Shown piece after piece: positions 4,739 to 14,669 of a stretch of 28,721 nucleotides of DNA. The stretch's first letter is position 1. Each line of letters begins with the position of its first letter. The DNA comes from Candidatus Zixiibacteriota bacterium (lineage in GTDB: Bacteria; Zixibacteria; MSB-5A5; GN15; PGXB01), in NCBI GenBank assembly GCA_020345705.1, contig CP070766.1, positions 908,070 through 936,790 of the forward strand. The letters are read 5' to 3'. The notes under the pieces were generated by a model. The model saw nothing but the letters and a program-made list of their open reading frames with translations. It ran no database searches and was not told where the DNA came from. A program made the position numbers and the translations under genes.

Positions 4739-5476
4739 TTAACCGAGATTCAGTGATGGAAATGCTTCGAGAAGATAGTTGGCGATAATCTGTAATATAT
4801 TGAAGAAAATGAGTACTCCGATTAGCATCAGTAATCCGCCCGATATAATTTCGACTGCACGGAAGTGCCGTTTGATGAAACCGAAGAAACCGACCAGGAA
4901 ATTGAACAGGAAGGCGGTCAAAATAAACGGGATACCCAGACCCGCCGAATAGAACGACAGCAATATTATACCCCTGGATACTGTCTCCTGATTGGCGGCG
5001 ACGGTCAGAATGGAGCCCAGGATGGGCCCGATGCACGGGGTCCAGCCGAAGGCAAAGGCCATGCCGATGACGACCGAACCGAGGATTCCGAATTTCTTGC
5101 TGCCGGAATGAAAGCGCTTTTCATAGTTGAGAAATTTTATCCTGAAGACGCCGGCGACGTGCAGACCAAAAATGAATATCAATAGGCCGGCGACCTTGTT
5201 GAAAACCGTCAAATTCTGAAACAGCCAGCTGCCGATGAATGAAGCCGATGCACCCAGAGCAATGAAGATAGCCGAGAACCCGACCACAAAGAATATCGTA
5301 TTGACGGTGACGCGGCCCAGATGTTCGGATGCCTTTTCCCTGTTCGTCAAGTCTTCGATCGAGACGCCCGAGATGAATGAGATGTAACCCGGTATCAACG
5401 GCAATACGCAGGGCGATATGAACGATAGACCTCCGGCAAGAAAGGCACTGAAATAGCTTATACTTGTTTCAAACAT
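4739..5476 (-). CDS. ccdA: Cytochrome c biogenesis protein CcdA (DsbD transmembrane domain family)
   Basis: SPCVLPLIPGY and GWTPCIGPILG redox-Cys motifs, about six transmembrane helices; AAGGA lies 6 nt before the ATG. Confidence 0.92.
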   Translation of the reverse strand: MFETSISYFSAFLAGGLSFISPCVLPLIPGYISFISGVSIEDLTNREKASEHLGRVTVNTIFFVVGFSAIFIALGASASFIGSWLFQNLTVFNKVAGLLIFIFGLHVAGVFRIKFLNYEKRFHSGSKKFGILGSVVIGMAFAFGWTPCIGPILGSILTVAANQETVSRGIILLSFYSAGLGIPFILTAFLFNFLVGFFGFIKRHFRAVEIISGGLLMLIGVLIFFNILQIIANYLLEAFPSLNLG

Positions 5477-6795: not shown

Positions 6796-7623
6796 TTATT
6801 TCCGATTGTCGTCGTTTGAGAGAATTTCGCTGGCGTCCTCCAGGAACTTTCTGTCTTCCTTCGAGATATTCTCTATGCCGAGTTCATTTATCTTGTCCAG
6901 GACTCGATCAACCCTTTTCATTATTTCCTCGGCTTCTTGCCGGTTTTTCTCCAGCTTGGCAGTTTTACGTCTGTGGCGCAAAGACTTAAGCCACCGCCCA
7001 AAAAACTGCAAACGCCAGTCCAGCTTAATGTAGACCAGGCCGACCACGGCCCCTCCAAGATGGGCGAGATGAGCCACCTGGGGACCGGAGGCAAAGAAAC
7101 TCAATAGGCCGAATAAAGGGATGGCATATCTGACACGCATCGGCAGAATGAAAAAGACCAGAATCGTCCGGCGAGGAAACATCAGCCAGTAGGCGGCCAG
7201 GATTCCGTATATCGCCCCCGACGCACCGATGATCGGATAAGGGAGCCCGGGATTCAGAATCACGGAAAACAAGGACCCGCCCAGCCCGCAATAGATGTAA
7301 TACTTCAGAAACGCCCTGGAGCCCCAGGTATATTCGATTTCGGTACCGAACATCCAGAGAACAAACATATTGAAGAGGATATGCAAGAAATTGGCGTGCA
7401 AAAACATGTAAGTGAACAGTTGGTACATGTAATTGGGGAATTCGCTGTAAAACCTGGCGGGCGTCAGGCCAAAAGCGACCGCCAGATTTACAGTCGAAAC
7501 GTTCTGGATAAGATAGACGGCGCCATTGGCAATAAGAAGATACTTTATTACCCGGCTGACCGATCCCGGTCCAAAACGAAGTCCCGAGGATCCTTGAGAA
7601 TGTACGTTCCCGAACGACCTCAT
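6796..7623 (-). CDS. Rhomboid-family intramembrane serine protease with a C-terminal helical tail
   Basis: TYMFLHANFLHILFNM, catalytic GASG and AHLAHLGG motifs. The cytoplasmic tail (VDRVLDKINELGIENIS) resembles that of FCB-group rhomboids. ATG at 7623; GTG at 7626 is an alternative start. Confidence 0.93.
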   Translation of the reverse strand: MRSFGNVHSQGSSGLRFGPGSVSRVIKYLLIANGAVYLIQNVSTVNLAVAFGLTPARFYSEFPNYMYQLFTYMFLHANFLHILFNMFVLWMFGTEIEYTWGSRAFLKYYIYCGLGGSLFSVILNPGLPYPIIGASGAIYGILAAYWLMFPRRTILVFFILPMRVRYAIPLFGLLSFFASGPQVAHLAHLGGAVVGLVYIKLDWRLQFFGRWLKSLRHRRKTAKLEKNRQEAEEIMKRVDRVLDKINELGIENISKEDRKFLEDASEILSNDDNRK

Positions 7624-7659
7624 CACTCAAACTATCGGCAAATTCTGTTCGCCTCTTAA

Positions 7660-7688
7660 ATTATATAATTAAGCCGTGGCGGCGTCAA
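7660..7688 (-). promoter_or_regulatory. Near-consensus sigma70 promoter for the rhomboid / pseudo-receiver / ccdA genes
   Basis: On the minus strand: TTGACG (7688-7683), 17-nt spacer, TATAAT (7665-7660). Confidence 0.75.
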
Positions 7689-7721
7689 AGTCAAGCCCCG
7701 GTTGCCCTGCGGCAGATAATT

Positions 7722-7898
7722 TCATATGCGCTCGGAGTCCGGCTGTTTCGCCGTCGCATCCTCGATCTTTTCACCCAACTGGGTTTTGCAGGCAGGGCCC
7801 ATTCACGTCTTAATCCCGATCTTTGGAAGGATGAATCTCACCAGCGCATACCAGGCGGCGAGAAATACAATCAGGAATGATATATCATAAATGTCCAT
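7722..7898 (-). CDS. Small single-pass membrane protein with an in-frame TGA; putative selenoprotein (58 aa)
   Basis: Manual translation: MDIYDISFLIVFLAAWYALVRFILPKIGIKT-(TGA 7805-7803)-MGPACKTQLGEKIEDATAKQPDSERI-stop. ATG lies 8 nt after the stop of the CoA-binding gene. There is one hydrophobic helix, a Cys five residues after the TGA and a hairpin downstream. No strong SD. If TGA is a true stop the product is 31 aa. Confidence 0.65.
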
Positions 7899-7906
7899 AG
7901 AGGTAT

Positions 7907-8350
7907 CTATTGTCCGGAAAATAACCGTCGATGCTCCTTTAGCATGCATCTGTCCATTACCATCAACAAGCCGGCTTTCTCTCCCAGCCTGAAGGCTTCC
8001 GGCGACACGACCGCTTCCTGCATCCAGACGGCTCTGGCCCCTATTTCGACAGCCGCTTTGGTGATTTGCGGCGCCGCCGATGGCCTGCGGAATATGTCTA
8101 CAATATCGATCGGCTCAGGAATCGCTCTCAGATCGGGATAGGATTTCTCTCCAAGGGCCTCGGCGATGCCAGGATTCACCGGAATTACTCTGTATCCCTG
8201 GAGCTGCAGGTAATTCGCAATCCGGTTGCTGGGTCGGTCCGGGTCGGGGGAAAGCCCGACCACGGCTATGGTTTTGGAATTCTGGAGTATTCTATATATC
8301 TCGTCCGGCGATGGATTCTTCCAGCCGCCGGCACGCGGGTAAACGGGCAT
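7907..8350 (-). CDS. CoA-binding domain protein (YccU-like)
   Basis: KTIAVVGLSPDPDRPS, GYRVIPVNPG, IDIVDIFRRP, AVWMQE and VMDRCM are family motifs. Confidence 0.92.
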   Translation of the reverse strand: MPVYPRAGGWKNPSPDEIYRILQNSKTIAVVGLSPDPDRPSNRIANYLQLQGYRVIPVNPGIAEALGEKSYPDLRAIPEPIDIVDIFRRPSAAPQITKAAVEIGARAVWMQEAVVSPEAFRLGEKAGLLMVMDRCMLKEHRRLFSGQ

Positions 8351-8352
8351 TA

Positions 8353-8679
8353 TTATTCGAGTGTTTTTTTCACATGGTTAAGAAGCTGGGCTCGCGGAAG
8401 AGCGCCTACAACCTGGTCAACCAGCTGTCCCTTCTTGAAAAACAACAATGCTGGAATAGACATAATCTTAAACTGGCTGGCAACTTTGGTGTTCGCGTCG
8501 ACGTCCATTTTCGCCACTTTGAGCTTGCCGTCATATTCGGCTGCGATTTCTTCCAGAATGGGGGCAATCATTTTGCACGGGCCGCACCACTGGGCCCAGA
8601 AGTCAACTATAACGGGTATGTCGGATTGCAGTACTTCTGTGTCAAAGCTTCCGTCGCTTATAGCAATTGGCTTACTCAT
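8353..8679 (-). CDS. trxA: Thioredoxin
   Basis: DFWAQWCGPCKMIAP active site, 108 aa, cis-Pro segment SIPALL; AAGGA RBS. Confidence 0.97.
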   Translation of the reverse strand: MSKPIAISDGSFDTEVLQSDIPVIVDFWAQWCGPCKMIAPILEEIAAEYDGKLKVAKMDVDANTKVASQFKIMSIPALLFFKKGQLVDQVVGALPRAQLLNHVKKTLE

Positions 8680-10398: not shown

Positions 10399-13300
10399 TC
10401 AGATATGCTCCGGCTTAAGTGAATGCATATTTTTGGCCTGATCGACAAAGGCCTCAAGCCGGGTCTCCTCACCGGTGTCCTTTAGACCCTCGTAGCTGAT
10501 ATTCAGCCAGGGAACGTCGCCGATGTCATGCGAGACTTTTCTGGAAAGAGACGTTACGATCGTCCCCGGCATGCAGTTAAAGGGCATACAATTGATGATA
10601 CCGGAAGCACCGTCGTGGGCGAATTCGACGGCTTTGCCGATCGTAAGAACAGCCTCGCCCCTGACATCGACCGACAGGTAGGGCGAAGCCAGCCTGATTG
10701 TATTTGACACGGGTGGTTCCGGGTCTATCGGGTAATGCTTCCGAAAGCTCCGTATGATCCTGAGCTCGTCACGATGCTGACAAAACTCCTGCAAGACGCC
10801 TTTTATAACATCCTTCCAGCGCTTTTCGTAGATGGAGTCAAGTTTGTATGTATAAGAAGTGTAGTTTATCCATTCGGCGAAGGTTGCCAGCTTTACTTCA
10901 AGGCCCAGCCGTTCGATCTTTGTTATCAGATGATTGTTGGAAAACCGGTTATTTCTGAGATAGATTTCGCCCACGAGCCCGATAAACGGCCGGCGCGAGG
11001 TCTCGCGGGCAATAGCGCTGAATTCGGCCGCGGCGCGCTCGGCCAATCCGGTAAAGCCACCCTCCTCAAGAATACACTCCTCGGCCTTCCTCAGATATTT
11101 GTAGTACACTCTCTCCGCCTGCCCGATCTCAAGCTCGTAAGGTCTGGTCTGCAGGAGCGCCTTTATCAGGCAGTCAACAAAAACGACTCCTTTCCAGCCC
11201 AGCCGCCGAAAGGTGTTTCCCTCCAGGCCGAAATCGGTGTAGGATGTTTTGGAGTTCGGCGAATAAATGGGCACATTCTTGTACCCCAGTTCATCGAGGA
11301 CAATTCGGTGATACTGGCTGTATTGGCCGAAGCGGCACGGCCCGTCGGCACCCGGCATGAAAAAAACAGTCCGGTCATGGTCAGCATCACCGGAGCGCAG
11401 CTTCTTTATCATGTCTCCGGTGGTAATCGTACAGGGGAAGCATTCTTTCCCTGAGGTGAATTTCTTGCCCAGCGTCAGGCTCTCCTCGTCCGGCTCATCA
11501 AGCACCTGAGCTTTGATCCCGCACTTCTCAAAGGCGGCACGAACGGGATAGGCGTGATCACACATGTTAGGAATATAGACGACCCTTTCTGCGGGAGAAG
11601 AGCCCTTGTTGCTGGGCGAGTATTCGGTAATCGGCGGCGTGTAGGTGTAAAACCGGAGTGAGTCAAGAAAGGCTTCCACCCTTGTGATCAAGCCGGCGTC
11701 GGCGGAGTGCTCATCCAGCTCAAGCTGAAGATAAGGTTTTCCACTCATGGTCCGTCTGAAAAAATGAATAATGAACGAATCCGGACCACAGCCAAACGAC
11801 GTCAGATAAATGGGATAAAGGTTAGGATGCTTGCGTATAAAGCTCGCCGCCGAAAGTATCTTGCGCCCGTAAAGCCAGTACATGGTCGAGAGATCCTCGG
11901 TGTCGAGGTCCAGCGGCAGGAAATCAATCGGGATTGCTTTTAGTCCCATTTTCTTCAGTCGAGACGGTATTTCCAGCGAGAGTCTGCGGTCGAAACCGGT
12001 GTATGGTCGGCTGACAAGGACCATGCATTTCTCATCCCGGCCGATCGAATCAAGAATCTGCCGGCCGGTATCGAGAAGCTGTTTCCGAAAAAGATCATAG
12101 GCCCGCATGCCGTTTCTGATAGCCTTCTTGAGCTCTCTTTCGGATAAACCCATCACTTTAAGTAACGGCTTTAATTGATTGAGCATTTTAGAGATATCGC
12201 GCAGGATTCTGATGGGTGAGCCGATGAATTTGACCCCGCGCCGGGAAAAATCAAATTTGGTCCGAACCGTGTTGGAGATTGTCTGGACGTAGGGACAGAT
12301 ATAAGTGCCGTCATCGCGGGATTCATCATCGGTGAATTTTATGATGCCCGGCAGGAAAATATAGTCGACCTGTTTTTTGATCAGATTCTCGACGTGCCCG
12401 AAGGCCATCTTGACCGGGAAGCAAGTTTCCGCGGCAAACATCTCCAGGGAGTTTTCCACGATTTCATGATTGGACAGATCCGAATTGATCACCTCGTAGC
12501 CGAGCGTCTCAAAGAATGCTTTCCAATAGGGATAATACTCATAAAAATGCAGGACCCTGGGAATTCCGATCCTTCCGCGCGGAACGTCTCTGGCGGGACT
12601 GACATCAATATAGCGCCGCAACAGCAGTCTTTGACGAAGATTGAGGTAGTCAGGAACGCGGGTTTTGTCCTCTTTTCGTTTGACGTCGTATTTCTCGCAA
12701 CGGCTCCCATAGTAAAGAGGCGCCTCGCCTTCGATTTCGACCTTGTGTATCTCGCACATGTTGGAGCAGTCTTCACAGGTGAACGCACTCAACTCGTACT
12801 TCTTTCTGGAGAGGTCGAATCCCTTGAAGCCCGTGCCCTTTCCGTCGTCGACCTCCATTGCCAGAATAGCCGCGCCGATGGCTCCGGTGACGTCATGATG
12901 CGGCGGGACCGTGACTTTCTTACCGGTCAGTTTTTCAAATGCCGCCACAACGCCCTTGTTCCACGCGACTCCTCCCTGGAAAAAGATATTGTCGCCGACT
13001 CTTCGGTCGCCGACGACTTTGGTCAGGTAGTTGGAAGCAATGGAATAGGCCAGCCCGGCGATGAGGTCATCGGTATCGGCGCCGGCGCGCTGGTGGCTGA
13101 TCAGGTCGGATTCCATGAAGACGGTGCACCTTTCGCCGCACCCGACCGGGCATCTGGCTTTCAACGCCCGGTCGCCAAACTCCCGCTCGATGTTTATCTC
13201 AAGCTTTTCGGCCTGTTCCTGGAGAAACGACCCGGTTCCGGCGGCGCAGGCCTTATTCATTTCGAAATCGATGACGGTTTTGTCGTCAAGGGAGATGTAC

Positions 13301-14583
13301 TTCGAATCCTGCCCGCCGATCTCAAAAATCGTGTCCACCGTGGGGTCGATATTGATGGCCGCCGTCGCTTGGGCAGTAATCTCATTTTTTATGATATCGG
13401 CTCCCACAAAGTCGCCGGTCAAATACCGTCCCGAACCGGTCGTGGCGACGCCCCTTACCCGAACCCTGTCGCCGACTTCGGCGCCGATCTCGGCCAATCC
13501 CCGGCGGACCGCCTCAATCGGGCGGCCTTCCGTCATGAGGTAGCGGCGGGCGACGACGTTCTTTTCCCTGTCAATCAGGACCAGGTTGGTTGACAGTGAG
13601 CCGACGTCAATCCCGAGATAGACCTCAAGATTTTCGACTCTCCCCGCGTATCGCTTCGAGGTCAGCTTATAATACTTCGAGTTCGGATAATCATAGGATA
13701 GCCGGTCGCGGCCGCTTGCGGGCACCTCTCGGTATTTCAAATAAGCTTCGATTTTGCCGGGATCTATCTGCACCGGTTCAATGTCATGTTTGGTGCCGGC
13801 CAGCATGGCCGAGCCGATAGCACCCATGACGTTAAAACGTTCAGGTATTACAAGCTGGTCGTTTTCCAGTTCCAGGATATCGACAAAAGCTCTCACAACT
13901 CCCGGATTGGCCGCAACTCCGCCCTCGAACGCAATCGGCGGGTCGAATTTCTTTCCCCGTGCTATGGCGCCCTTGAAGTTGCGTGCCACCGCATAGCACA
14001 GTCCGGCAACAATATCGTAATCGGGTGTGGCTATCTGCTGCAGATGAATCATATCTGATTTGGCGAAGACCGAGCATCGGCCGGCGATCCGCGGCGGATT
14101 TTTCGATTTCAGCGCCAGACGGCCGAATTCCTCCTCGATAGAGATTTTGAGGCGGCCGGCCTGCTGGTCAAGGAATGAGCCGGTTCCGGCCGCGCAAAGA
14201 TTGTTCATGCTGAAATCAAGGACAGCCTTTTTGTCGGGATCAATCTGGATAAACTTGGAATCCTCCCCCCCCATTTCTATTATTGTTCGAATCTGCGGCA
14301 GCAATTTGAAATTGGCCGTGCTGATCGCATTGATCTCGCCGAGGGGCTCCCCGCCCAGAATTTTCACGCCCGTCCGGCTGCCGATTCCGGTGAATGCGAG
14401 CTTGACCGGCTGTTTAATGAATGGAGCGAAATCCGTCTGAAGCAGCTGCATCAGCGTTTGGTACGGCCGGCCGTGAAAACGGCAATAAGCCGTCTTGACA
14501 ATCCTGCCGTCGGCATCAAGCACAGCTATTTTGACCGAAAGCGACCCGATATCGATTCCGATTGAGAGATTTTCAAAGTCCAT
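10399..14583 (-). CDS. Fused 2-hydroxyacyl-CoA dehydratase activase-related protein (two BcrAD/BadFG ATPase domains, DUF2229 and a dehydratase-like domain)
   Basis: Two copies of GIDxGS / IxxGGxDSK / CAAGTGSFL / CxVF (ASKHA Fe-S ATPase), a CEDCSNMC linker, then ETCFPVK, FGCGPD, ECFPC, GPCRFGQY and PFNCMPG. Start placed at MDFENLSIGID (14583). Confidence 0.9.
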   Translation of the reverse strand: MDFENLSIGIDIGSLSVKIAVLDADGRIVKTAYCRFHGRPYQTLMQLLQTDFAPFIKQPVKLAFTGIGSRTGVKILGGEPLGEINAISTANFKLLPQIRTIIEMGGEDSKFIQIDPDKKAVLDFSMNNLCAAGTGSFLDQQAGRLKISIEEEFGRLALKSKNPPRIAGRCSVFAKSDMIHLQQIATPDYDIVAGLCYAVARNFKGAIARGKKFDPPIAFEGGVAANPGVVRAFVDILELENDQLVIPERFNVMGAIGSAMLAGTKHDIEPVQIDPGKIEAYLKYREVPASGRDRLSYDYPNSKYYKLTSKRYAGRVENLEVYLGIDVGSLSTNLVLIDREKNVVARRYLMTEGRPIEAVRRGLAEIGAEVGDRVRVRGVATTGSGRYLTGDFVGADIIKNEITAQATAAINIDPTVDTIFEIGGQDSKYISLDDKTVIDFEMNKACAAGTGSFLQEQAEKLEINIEREFGDRALKARCPVGCGERCTVFMESDLISHQRAGADTDDLIAGLAYSIASNYLTKVVGDRRVGDNIFFQGGVAWNKGVVAAFEKLTGKKVTVPPHHDVTGAIGAAILAMEVDDGKGTGFKGFDLSRKKYELSAFTCEDCSNMCEIHKVEIEGEAPLYYGSRCEKYDVKRKEDKTRVPDYLNLRQRLLLRRYIDVSPARDVPRGRIGIPRVLHFYEYYPYWKAFFETLGYEVINSDLSNHEIVENSLEMFAAETCFPVKMAFGHVENLIKKQVDYIFLPGIIKFTDDESRDDGTYICPYVQTISNTVRTKFDFSRRGVKFIGSPIRILRDISKMLNQLKPLLKVMGLSERELKKAIRNGMRAYDLFRKQLLDTGRQILDSIGRDEKCMVLVSRPYTGFDRRLSLEIPSRLKKMGLKAIPIDFLPLDLDTEDLSTMYWLYGRKILSAASFIRKHPNLYPIYLTSFGCGPDSFIIHFFRRTMSGKPYLQLELDEHSADAGLITRVEAFLDSLRFYTYTPPITEYSPSNKGSSPAERVVYIPNMCDHAYPVRAAFEKCGIKAQVLDEPDEESLTLGKKFTSGKECFPCTITTGDMIKKLRSGDADHDRTVFFMPGADGPCRFGQYSQYHRIVLDELGYKNVPIYSPNSKTSYTDFGLEGNTFRRLGWKGVVFVDCLIKALLQTRPYELEIGQAERVYYKYLRKAEECILEEGGFTGLAERAAAEFSAIARETSRRPFIGLVGEIYLRNNRFSNNHLITKIERLGLEVKLATFAEWINYTSYTYKLDSIYEKRWKDVIKGVLQEFCQHRDELRIIRSFRKHYPIDPEPPVSNTIRLASPYLSVDVRGEAVLTIGKAVEFAHDGASGIINCMPFNCMPGTIVTSLSRKVSHDIGDVPWLNISYEGLKDTGEETRLEAFVDQAKNMHSLKPEHI

Positions 14584-14669
14584 TTCAAAATATTCCACTG
14601 TTATCAGGTTGCTGAAATTGATAAGAATTTTTACAGTCAATTGCAACGACAAATTAAAGGAAATTTATT

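What the first reader, a model, noticed from the sequence alone, without database searches (positions are those of the whole stretch)
7722..7898. Unannotated small membrane ORF with an in-frame UGA in a U-M-G-P-A-C motif: probable selenoprotein
Seen: the 280-nt gap between the CoA-binding gene and the rhomboid hides a minus-strand ORF, MDIYDISFLIVFLAAWYALVRFILPKIGIKT-TGA-MGPACKTQLGEKIEDATAKQPDSERI-TGA. It starts 8 nt after the upstream stop and ends about 30 nt before the rhomboid promoter, so it fills the gap. It encodes one TM helix, then TGA (codon 32), Cys37 and a hydrophilic tail. The ORF track misses it because both halves are under 60 aa. Established: selenocysteine is encoded by in-frame UGA and often pairs with a nearby Cys. 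Many other genes here end in TGA, so this is not a genome-wide recoding. Inference: a membrane-anchored redox or metal-binding miniprotein with a UxxxxC centre. From memory only, not a search, short proteins with an LPxxGxxT-C-M-x(2,3)-C motif exist in other anaerobes and Planctomycetota; these would be the Cys orthologues.
Basis: partly seen in the sequence, partly recalled or inferred. Interest (0 to 1): 0.9.

Follow-up and report, generated by a model that had tools for sequence, protein, structure and literature searches.

The report
Hidden small membrane selenoprotein gene
The "empty" gap between two genes holds a real 58-codon gene for a tiny membrane-anchored protein whose internal UGA is almost certainly read as selenocysteine. 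It belongs to a widespread family that gene callers cut in half and that current selenoprotein catalogues do not list.

Summary
Window 7722-7898 (-) encodes one predicted membrane helix, then UGA at codon 32, Cys37 and a disordered hydrophilic tail.

- About 250 homologous loci carry TGA at this column: 152 of 285 Zixibacteria genomes and about 90 of 301 Acidobacteriota genomes. None carries TAA or TAG there. Among the 50 Zixibacteria loci extracted, the true terminal stops are mixed (27 TAA, 17 TGA, 6 TAG).
- A hairpin 18-37 nt after the UGA, with a G-U-containing loop, shows compensatory base changes in both phyla, like a bacterial SECIS.
- Full-length Cys homologues with the motif LPxxG(V/I)xT-C-MSGxC exist, mostly labelled Planctomycetota. 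Of the top 150 cluster representatives, 97 have Cys at the U column.
- The genome has selB, tRNA-Sec and two selD copies, one itself with an in-frame UGA. selA is cut by a 100-N run in the sequence provided.

The family matches no Pfam or NCBIfam model and is absent from a 2026 table of 119 prokaryotic selenoprotein families.

Thioredoxin is a recurrent neighbour in three lineages, in different gene orders and once as a fusion. DUF2892, DsbD/CcdA and FmdB-like genes also recur.

The most likely function is a thioredoxin-coupled selenol/thiol centre at the cytoplasmic face of the membrane. This is inferred, not shown.

Earlier agents of this scan reported what appears to be the same family in other genomes.

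The parts
7722..7898 (-). Whole gene: 58 codons plus terminal TGA (7722-7724). ATG at 7896-7898.
   Evidence: M1 and the MD-x-Y-D start are conserved in the 50 homologues.
7818..7892 (-). Single predicted transmembrane helix, residues 3-27. W16, L19 and P25 are conserved.
   Evidence: AlphaFold2 with alignment A7 gives helix 3-27, with mean pLDDT 92 and 93 for residue blocks 1-10 and 11-20. Conservation. Flank charges predict N-terminus outside, C-terminus inside.
7803..7805 (-). In-frame UGA, codon 32: predicted selenocysteine.
   Evidence: TGA at this column in 50 of 50 extracted loci, in all listed Zixibacteria and Acidobacteriota hits and in the 11 apparent exceptions on inspection. Cys sits here in 97 of the top 150 database representatives.
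7788..7790 (-). Cys37, the +5 partner (U-x4-C).
   Evidence: At this position the codon is TGT in 22 and TGC in 21 of the 50 loci, a synonymous wobble. The column is invariant in the joint Sec/Cys alignment A7. It is absent in 7 of 50 Zixibacteria members.
7773..7784 (-). SECIS-like hairpin. In this copy it is only a 4-bp stem (ACCC/GGGU) with loop AGUU, at positions +22 to +33 counted from the U of UGA.
   Evidence: Comparative support: alignment A3 (28 sequences) has 5 inner pairs that swap CG/UA/GC/AU, with 0 of 500 shuffles reaching the observed score. Alignment A4 (13 sequences) is 93% paired, with 7 of 8 pairs changed on both sides. Acidobacteriota have the same hairpin with GGUC or AGUC loops. 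On its own, the window's hairpin folds no better than shuffles (z = 0.64).
7725..7787 (-). Hydrophilic, poorly conserved C-terminal tail (residues 38-58), predicted disordered.
   Evidence: Mean pLDDT 52-57 for the last three 10-residue blocks. Among the 50 homologues, 16-37 codons follow the UGA, median 25.
8353..8679 (-). Thioredoxin (TrxA-type), two genes upstream on the same strand: the likely redox partner.
   Evidence: PF00085 at 4.8e-34 and TIGR01068 at 133 bits. It lies upstream in 50 of 50 Zixibacteria loci. It is also adjacent in Acidobacteriota and in Cys-form contigs, and is fused once.
7907..8350 (-). CoA_binding_2 gene directly upstream. Its stop lies 8 nt before the miniprotein's ATG.
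   Evidence: PF13380 at 2.2e-41. It is present in 36 of the 50 Zixibacteria loci (one only as a partial match) and once upstream in another genome, L128.
6796..7626 (-). Rhomboid intramembrane protease gene directly downstream, with its own promoter-like site at 7660-7688.
   Evidence: PF01694 at 1e-34. It lies downstream in 50 of 50 Zixibacteria loci, but in none of the Acidobacteriota loci or Cys-form contigs. Promoter-like site.
4739..5476 (-). CcdA/DsbD_TM-type membrane thiol-disulfide transporter, at the end of the same co-directional gene run.
   Evidence: PF02683 at 2e-12. One Cys-form homologue sits directly before a DsbD_TM+thioredoxin fusion gene.

Best explanation
Window 7722-7898 (-) is a genuine gene for a 58-residue selenoprotein that spans the membrane once.

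Decoding (about 0.9 likely): SelB carrying Sec-tRNA(Sec) reads the UGA at codon 32. It is guided by a small SECIS hairpin that starts about 18-22 nt after the UGA, inside the coding sequence. That hairpin is why the residues x-Q-L-x after Cys37 look conserved. When decoding fails, the product would be a 31-residue helix-only peptide.

Architecture (predicted): a short acidic N-terminus lies outside the cell. One helix covers residues 3-27. A basic stretch next to the membrane follows, with the motif LP-(K/R)-x-G-(V/I)-x-T-U-x4-C. This places Sec32 and Cys37 at the cytoplasmic face. A disordered charged tail follows.

Function (inferred, about 0.45): Sec32 is the reactive nucleophile of a membrane-tethered redox centre. 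After oxidation it forms a selenenylsulfide with Cys37, or with a partner thiol in the members that lack Cys37. The co-encoded cytoplasmic thioredoxin reduces it again. The centre would act on a membrane-proximal oxidant or on membrane partners such as DUF2892/YgaP-like proteins or CcdA/DsbD.

The substrate is unknown.
For: Coding and Sec:
- One in-frame TGA sits at the same column in 50 of 50 extracted relatives, whose real stops are 27 TAA, 17 TGA and 6 TAG.
- 152 of 285 Zixibacteria genomes have the gene, as do about 90 of 301 Acidobacteriota genomes. All have TGA, including 11 apparent exceptions inspected by hand.
- The Cys37 codon varies only between TGT and TGC.
- Cys homologues are full length and align Cys to the UGA. 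P25, G28, C/U32 and C37 are invariant.

SECIS:
- The stems covary, and G27/U28 in the loop are nearly invariant.
- The same hairpin, with GGUC or AGUC loops, occurs in Acidobacteriota.
- No terminator-like site is present.

Machinery:
- selB scores 334 bits, tRNA-Sec 74.5 bits (confirmed by ARAGORN), and there are two selD copies, one with an in-frame TGA.

Topology:
- The N flank has a mean net charge of -0.8 and the flank after the helix +1.5. The latter is the more positive in 92% of 159 members.
- AlphaFold2 predicts a helix at residues 3-27.

Thioredoxin link:
- Thioredoxin lies upstream in 50 of 50 Zixibacteria loci.
- It lies directly downstream in 7 of the Acidobacteriota loci.
- It lies upstream in one Cys-form contig and is fused in P0038.
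- One Cys form sits next to a DsbD_TM+Trx gene, and ccdA lies in the window's own gene run.
Against: - There is no experimental evidence of translation or selenium incorporation. No RNA run holds the locus.
- The window's own hairpin has only 4 bp and folds no better than shuffled sequence. Its SECIS status rests on comparison with relatives.
- selA cannot be confirmed in this assembly because a 100-N run cuts it.
- The frame staying open after the UGA is not discriminating by itself, because frame +1 is open about as long.
- The function is inferred from neighbourhood only. Cys37 is missing in 7 of 50 Zixibacteria members, so a fixed Sec-Cys pair is not essential.
- ArsR, Pyr_redox_2, cytochrome bd and zf-HC2 neighbours in other lineages fit metal, sulfur or stress-sensing roles equally well.
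Confidence: 0.85

Rival explanations
1. The UGA is an ordinary stop. The product is a 31-residue membrane micropeptide, and the conserved downstream hairpin is a regulatory RNA element, for example one controlling the rhomboid gene.
For: Public protein collections hold the gene mostly as 30-32-residue fragments. The window's hairpin is weak. Frame +1 is also open after the UGA.
Against: The codon is TGA in about 250 of 250 loci, while the real stops are mixed. Cys homologues read straight through this position. The Cys37 codon shows only a synonymous T/C wobble. There is no U-tract terminator. The hairpin keeps SECIS-like spacing and loop in two phyla whose downstream genes differ.
Confidence: 0.04
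2. It is a real selenoprotein, but the Sec/Cys pair is a soft-ligand binding or hand-off site. It would handle a metal or metalloid (Hg, As, Cu) or a persulfide or selenide species at the inner face of the membrane, rather than act as a thioredoxin-cycled redox catalyst.
For: One Cys form lies in an operon of an ArsR-type regulator, a YgaP-like_TM gene, the miniprotein and Pyr_redox_2. ArsR lies upstream in one Acidobacteriota locus, and a YgaP-like_TM gene lies upstream in 14 of the 33 loci. From my own knowledge: YgaP is a rhodanese-linked membrane protein, and MerT uses a cytoplasmic-face Cys pair to hand over Hg.
Against: No metal transporter or reductase is a consistent neighbour. Thioredoxin is the most widespread partner across lineages. 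Members without Cys37 would offer only one ligand.
Confidence: 0.25
3. In Zixibacteria the miniprotein is a substrate or cofactor of the adjacent rhomboid protease.
For: The rhomboid gene lies directly downstream in 50 of 50 Zixibacteria loci. The predicted N-out, single-pass topology is the one used by the known bacterial rhomboid substrate TatA of Providencia (own knowledge). The eukaryotic membrane selenoproteins SELENOS and SELENOK bind the rhomboid-like Derlins (own knowledge).
Against: No rhomboid gene is adjacent in the Acidobacteriota loci or in the 8 Cys-form proteins whose contigs were read. The rhomboid has its own promoter-like site. Synteny within one phylum may be inherited rather than functional.
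Confidence: 0.1
4. TGA is reassigned to Trp or Gly in these organisms (genetic code 4 or 25).
For: Some database entries show W or G at this position.
Against: 12 of 29 long frames in the window end in TGA. The miniprotein itself ends in TGA. The genome has selB, tRNA-Sec and a UGA-containing selD. The W and G entries are most simply explained by gene callers having used those codes.
Confidence: 0.01

Closest known systems
Bacterial selenoprotein genes decoded by SelB through an intragenic SECIS (prototype: E. coli fdhF)
   Same: There is an in-frame UGA. A hairpin lies inside the coding sequence a fixed short distance downstream, with G-U in the apical loop (GGUC in many relatives). Cys homologues exist. 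selB, selC and selD are present in the genome.
   Different: The gene is only 58 codons long. In this copy the hairpin is a minimal 4-bp stem, with its loop at +26 to +29 rather than about +22 to +25 as in fdhF (own knowledge). The protein is a membrane miniprotein with no enzyme fold.
Cys-form 'hypothetical proteins' with LPxxG(V/I)PT-C-MSGxC (P0013-P0159; the nearest ESM Atlas cluster is mostly labelled Planctomycetota)
   Same: Clear homologues: same length, one helix, invariant P, G, C/U and C columns, and a disordered tail. They have redox-type neighbours (Trx, DsbD_TM-Trx, DUF2892).
   Different: They carry Cys instead of Sec. Their neighbours include zf-HC2 with cytochrome bd, or ArsR with Pyr_redox_2, and none has a rhomboid gene. 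They are themselves uncharacterised and match no Pfam or NCBIfam model.
Eukaryotic SELENOK and SELENOS
   Same: Small, single-pass membrane selenoproteins with a disordered cytosolic tail. Both associate with rhomboid-family proteins (Derlins; own knowledge), a parallel to the rhomboid neighbour here.
   Different: There is no sequence similarity: no Pfam family matched at all. Their Sec lies at the extreme C-terminus, whereas here it sits next to the membrane, 26 residues from the C-terminus. The decoding system also differs (3'-UTR SECIS).
YgaP-like_TM / DUF2892 (PF11127) small membrane proteins
   Same: Tiny membrane proteins with a conserved Cys. They are a frequent direct neighbour of this family. 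Earlier notes of this scan report Sec forms of DUF2892.
   Different: They have two helices and an N-W-C-P motif. There is no profile match. It is a different family.
MerT cytoplasmic-face Cys pair and other juxtamembrane thiol pairs (own knowledge)
   Same: A pair of soft nucleophiles held at the inner membrane surface.
   Different: No homology. No mer genes are nearby.

Membership tests
Bacterial SelB/SECIS-decoded selenoprotein genes | In-frame UGA conserved at one alignment column among orthologues, while the true stop codons vary | tested here: met
   50 of 50 loci have TGA at the column, against 27 TAA, 17 TGA and 6 TAG at the ends. All hits in Zixibacteria and Acidobacteriota have TGA.
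Bacterial SelB/SECIS-decoded selenoprotein genes | Homologues with Cys aligned to the UGA | tested here: met
   97 of the top 150 representatives have Cys there. The C/U32 column is invariant in alignment A7.
Bacterial SelB/SECIS-decoded selenoprotein genes | Stem-loop shortly 3' of the UGA with a G in the apical loop (bSECIS) | tested here: met
   Covariation in A3 and A4, with 0 of 500 shuffles reaching the observed score. G27 and U28 are at least 90% conserved. Acidobacteriota have GGUC or AGUC loops. Caveat: the window's own stem is 4 bp and is not thermodynamically distinct.
Bacterial SelB/SECIS-decoded selenoprotein genes | selB, tRNA-Sec and selD in the genome | tested here: met
   selB scores 333.9 bits, tRNA-Sec 74.5 bits (also found by ARAGORN), and there are two selD copies, one with an in-frame TGA.
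Bacterial SelB/SECIS-decoded selenoprotein genes | selA in the genome | tested here: inconclusive
   Only the part matching residues 377-454 of the SelA model is present, next to selB, and it ends at a 100-N run at G000:C1:1757600-1757699. Of the 31 genomes searched (G000 included), 29 have a match above the cut-off.
Bacterial SelB/SECIS-decoded selenoprotein genes | Selenium incorporation shown (75Se labelling or mass spectrometry) | not testable with these tools
   Only sediment metagenome DNA runs hold the locus.
Catalogued prokaryotic selenoprotein families (NCBIfam models; Table 1 of PMC13188914) | Match to any family model or listed motif | tested here: not met
   No NCBIfam or Pfam hit for Sec or Cys forms at E <= 1. 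None of the 119 listed families is a one-helix U-x4-C miniprotein.
YgaP-like_TM / DUF2892 (PF11127) | Profile match; two-helix hairpin with an N-W-C-P motif | tested here: not met
   No PF11127 hit. One helix is predicted. The neighbouring DUF2892 genes are clearly distinct.
SELENOK / SELENOS | Sequence homology and Sec near the C-terminus | tested here: not met
   No Pfam family matched at all. Sec is residue 32 of 58. The resemblance is in architecture only.

The most novel reading that the evidence does not exclude
Together with the DUF2892/YgaP-like proteins, thioredoxin and FmdB-like zinc ribbons that keep turning up beside it, this family may form a so far undescribed membrane-surface selenol/thiol relay used by several phyla of sediment and soil bacteria.

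In Zixibacteria, the miniprotein may in addition work with the adjacent rhomboid protease. That would be a bacterial parallel to the SELENOS/SELENOK-Derlin partnership of the eukaryotic ER.
Probability: 0.12. Interest if true: 0.85.

Novelty: new member of a known kind. Interest (0 to 1): 0.62.

Why it matters
Bacterial selenoproteomes are mostly inventoried by looking for Sec/Cys pairs in proteins that have already been called. A 58-codon gene whose two halves both fall under ORF-length cut-offs escapes that approach.

This family occurs in about half of the Zixibacteria and about a third of the Acidobacteriota genomes sampled. Public collections hold it as 31-residue stubs, or with W or G in place of Sec. 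Adding it would:
- correct thousands of annotations;
- enlarge the selenoproteome of major soil and sediment phyla;
- give a very small, chemically synthesisable model of a membrane-anchored selenol/thiol centre with an obvious candidate reductase, the co-encoded thioredoxin.

It also shows how a SECIS inside a tiny gene constrains the amino acids that follow the Sec.

Tried and rejected
- A word-indexed search with the single read-through peptide found nothing. With the alignment it found only 30-32-residue stubs. The exhaustive HMM search was needed to find the Cys forms.
A 10-sequence subset worked and named the phylum.
- Rfam had nothing meaningful in 7600-8000.
- Thermodynamic folding of the window's own 54 nt after the UGA is no better than shuffles. 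Only the comparative evidence supports the SECIS.
- The test "the frame stays open after the UGA" was rejected as weak, because frame +1 is equally open.
- My first hairpin register for the f4 subgroup was wrong (15% paired). The corrected register was 96% paired, but with little covariation. The SECIS of that subgroup remains less certain.
- The apparent absence of selA was traced to a 100-N run. The SelA N-terminal-like hit at L004 belongs to a SAM-hydrolase-like protein, not to selA.
- No RNA-seq run holds the locus.
- No paper on the motif or the family was found.

Full report
OBSERVATION

It has 31 residues, mostly hydrophobic, then TGA (codon 32, window 7803-7805), then 26 more residues including Cys37, then a terminal TGA.

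The ATG lies 8 nt after the stop of a CoA_binding_2 gene (7907-8350; PF13380, 2.2e-41). The gene fills most of the 280-nt gap before a rhomboid gene (6796-7626; PF01694, 1e-34). A thioredoxin gene (8353-8679) lies one gene further upstream.

A promoter-like site matching 11 of 12 positions lies at 7660-7688 (-), 33 nt after the stop. No terminator-like site is found in 7500-8000.

TGA is an ordinary stop in this DNA. It ends 12 of the 29 open frames of 200 codons or more in the window.

IS THE UGA READ AS SELENOCYSTEINE?

(1) Orthologues
- A six-frame search of 60 relatives found the gene in 52 of them. Every clear match had exactly one in-frame TGA and aligned past it.
- I extracted 50 loci. 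TGA sits at codon 30-34 in all of them, and at codon 32 in 45.
- The real stop codons of these 50 genes are 27 TAA, 17 TGA and 6 TAG.
- A profile search of the whole phylum found the gene in 152 of 285 genomes, always with TGA. Record titles identify the phylum as Zixibacteria.
- The same search centred on a Bryobacterales MAG found it in 90 of 301 Acidobacteriota genomes, again with TGA.
- I fetched the 11 hits that appeared to stop before the codon. All carry TGA at the conserved column.
- No locus has TAA or TAG there.

(2) Coding signature beyond the UGA
- The codon five positions on is TGT in 22 and TGC in 21 of the 50 loci, a purely synonymous wobble.
- Seven members lack this Cys.

(3) Cys homologues
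- An exhaustive profile search of 1.84 billion representative proteins returned 485 hits at E <= 0.001.
- Of the top 150 representatives:
  - 97 are full-length proteins with Cys at the U column, 90 of them also with Cys at +5; most are 45-100 residues long;
  - 38 are stubs of 33 residues or fewer, cut at the TGA;
  - 16 show W or G, meaning TGA read under another genetic code.
- In a joint alignment of 14 Sec forms and 69 Cys forms, P25, G28, C/U32 and C37 are invariant.
- The nearest ESM Atlas cluster is a "hypothetical protein" cluster, mostly labelled Planctomycetota.

(4) SECIS
- Ungapped alignments anchored on the UGA show a hairpin whose stem occupies columns 19-25 and 30-36, with G27 and U28 nearly invariant in the loop.
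- In 28 sequences of the window's family, the five inner pairs switch among CG, UA, GC and AU. There are 37 cells changed on both sides against 14 expected, and 0 of 500 shuffles reach the observed score. Every slid register falls to 28-40% paired.
- In 13 sequences, mostly from a second family, a 3-nt-loop version is 93% paired, with 7 of 8 pairs changed on both sides.
- Acidobacteriota genes have the same hairpin at +18 to +37, with GGUC or AGUC loops and quite different stems.
- The covarying stem is why the residues flanking Q-L co-vary (T..G, V..D, I..D/N). That stretch is conserved for the RNA, not for the protein.
- Caveats: in the window itself the stem is only ACCC/GGGU and folds no better than shuffles. 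In a third family the best-conserved hairpin lies further downstream and hardly covaries.

(5) Machinery
- The genome (2.61 Mb, 83.8% complete) has selB (334 bits), a tRNA-Sec (74.5 bits, anticodon TCA by ARAGORN) and two selD genes, one itself with an in-frame TGA.
- Only the part of selA matching residues 377-454 of the SelA model is present, beside selB.
- That is because a run of exactly 100 N sits at genome positions 1757600-1757699, where the gene should continue. The run may be an assembly gap or a withheld stretch.
- Of the 31 genomes searched (G000 included), 29 have a selA match above the family cut-off.

Together these results meet the accepted computational criteria for a bacterial selenoprotein. 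I put the probability at about 0.9.

WHAT KIND OF PROTEIN IS IT?

AlphaFold2 with the 83-sequence alignment predicts one helix (residues 3-27; mean pLDDT 92 and 93 for the first two 10-residue blocks) and nothing ordered afterwards.

Across 159 members, the N flank has a mean net charge of -0.8 and the stretch from the helix end to the U/C has +1.5. The latter is the more positive in 92% of them. By the positive-inside rule, the N-terminus is outside and the Sec/Cys motif lies at the cytoplasmic face. This is a prediction, not a demonstration.

GENOMIC CONTEXT

In Zixibacteria:
- The order Trx - (CoA_binding_2, in 36 of 50 loci) - miniprotein - rhomboid - receiver-like protein holds in all 50 loci, except that the receiver-like gene was not detected in 5 of them (4 loci end inside the rhomboid gene).
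- A CcdA/DsbD_TM gene follows in the window.

Outside the phylum the order differs but the theme recurs:
- In 33 loci, mostly Acidobacteriota, a YgaP-like_TM (DUF2892) gene lies upstream in 14.
- Thioredoxin lies directly downstream in 7 of these loci; an eighth thioredoxin hit, upstream in L124, comes from a Zixibacteria-like MAG.
- An FmdB-type zinc ribbon lies downstream in 15.

The contigs of 8 Cys-form proteins were read. They show:
- Trx - miniprotein - zinc ribbon;
- a miniprotein::thioredoxin fusion;
- miniprotein - DsbD_TM+Trx;
- ArsR | DUF2892 - miniprotein - Pyr_redox_2;
- zf-HC2 - miniprotein - DUF2892 - cytochrome bd, and a short contig with only zf-HC2 - miniprotein;
- one contig too short to show informative neighbours.

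Thioredoxin adjacency arises in different gene orders in three lineages. That argues for a functional link rather than inherited synteny. The rhomboid link is confined to Zixibacteria.

MECHANISM PROPOSED (inference, about 0.45)

Sec32 is a membrane-tethered redox nucleophile. It is resolved by Cys37, or by a partner thiol where Cys37 is absent, and is recycled by the neighbouring cytoplasmic thioredoxin.

Rival functional readings are a soft-metal, persulfide or selenide hand-off site (about 0.25) and a rhomboid substrate or cofactor in Zixibacteria (about 0.1). An ordinary stop (0.04) and code reassignment (0.01) are effectively excluded.

COMPARISON WITH WHAT IS KNOWN

Neither the Sec form nor ten Cys forms match any Pfam-A or NCBIfam model at E <= 1. 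NCBIfam release 20 contains the recent selenoprotein models.

A 2026 review tabulates 119 prokaryotic selenoprotein families and subfamilies. None is a one-helix U-x4-C miniprotein (PMC13188914).

The deep-Sep paper describes SECIS-independent prediction methods that work from collections of Cys-containing proteins, and notes that deep-Sep may miss selenoproteins lacking Cys homologues (PMC12013277). That helps explain why a gene this short was overlooked. Text searches found no paper on the family.

It works like any SelB/SECIS-decoded gene. Its architecture resembles eukaryotic SELENOK and SELENOS, but there is no homology.

Earlier agents of this scan reported what appear to be members of the same family next to trxA or DUF2892 in other genomes. 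I could not compare their sequences, so I count those notes as agreement only, not as independent evidence.

VERDICT

This is a new selenoprotein family within a known kind of system. It is widespread and systematically mis-annotated, and its function is still inferred. Interest 0.62.

Noticed in passing
G000:C1:1757360-1757699 (outside the window; loci L003, L123): selA is cut by a run of exactly 100 N right next to selB. Only the part matching residues 377-454 of the SelA model is readable. The 'single-contig' genome therefore contains at least one N run (an assembly gap or a withheld stretch), which fits its 83.8% completeness.
   Followed up: yes
G000:C1:122233-123153 and 2006013-2006936 (outside the window): There are two selD copies. 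One has an in-frame TGA, so SelD is itself a selenoprotein. The other lies in a 741-residue open frame, which suggests a fusion protein.
   Followed up: no
window 4739-5476 (-): A CcdA/DsbD_TM-type membrane thiol-disulfide transporter gene ends the same co-directional gene run (Trx - CoA-binding - miniprotein - rhomboid - receiver-like - CcdA).
   Followed up: partly
Loci L038, L039, L045, L048, L050, L051, L054, L055, L062 (Zixibacteria family f4), +36 to +50 after the UGA: A second, nearly invariant hairpin (GGCUCCGGAGGAGCC type, encoding A-P-E-E-P) lies further downstream than the usual SECIS position. A more variable hairpin lies at +10 to +33. Which of the two serves as the SECIS is unclear.
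   Followed up: partly
Proteins P0011, P0012, P0021, P0022, P0029, P0030, P0052 and others: Public protein collections hold members of this family with Trp or Gly at the Sec position. These are evidently TGA translated under code 4 or 25 by metagenome pipelines.
   Followed up: partly
P0038 / L109:2057-2683: One metagenomic contig encodes the Cys-form miniprotein fused in frame to a complete thioredoxin domain (208 residues). A YgaP-like_TM gene lies nearby.
   Followed up: partly
Loci L135, L138, L144, L152, L154-L156 (Acidobacteriota): A compact module recurs: YgaP-like_TM (Cys form, N-W-C-P motif) - Sec miniprotein - thioredoxin - FmdB-type zinc ribbon. The genes abut or overlap.
   Followed up: partly
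Loci L159, L161-L167 (Acidobacteriota): A subgroup has T-U-(A/G)-V-P-x-P-x-G... after the Sec and no Cys at +5. The next Cys lies 10-14 residues away.
   Followed up: no
L004:910-1884 (-) (G000:C1, about 659-660 kb): A 324-residue protein combines a stretch resembling the SelA N-terminal domain with an (R)-SAM hydrolase / fluorinase-like domain.
   Followed up: no
window 10399-14652 (-): A 1417-residue protein fuses BcrAD_BadFG ATPase, DUF2229 (CoA enzyme activase) and HGD-D-like domains. It heads the co-directional run that ends with the miniprotein.
   Followed up: no
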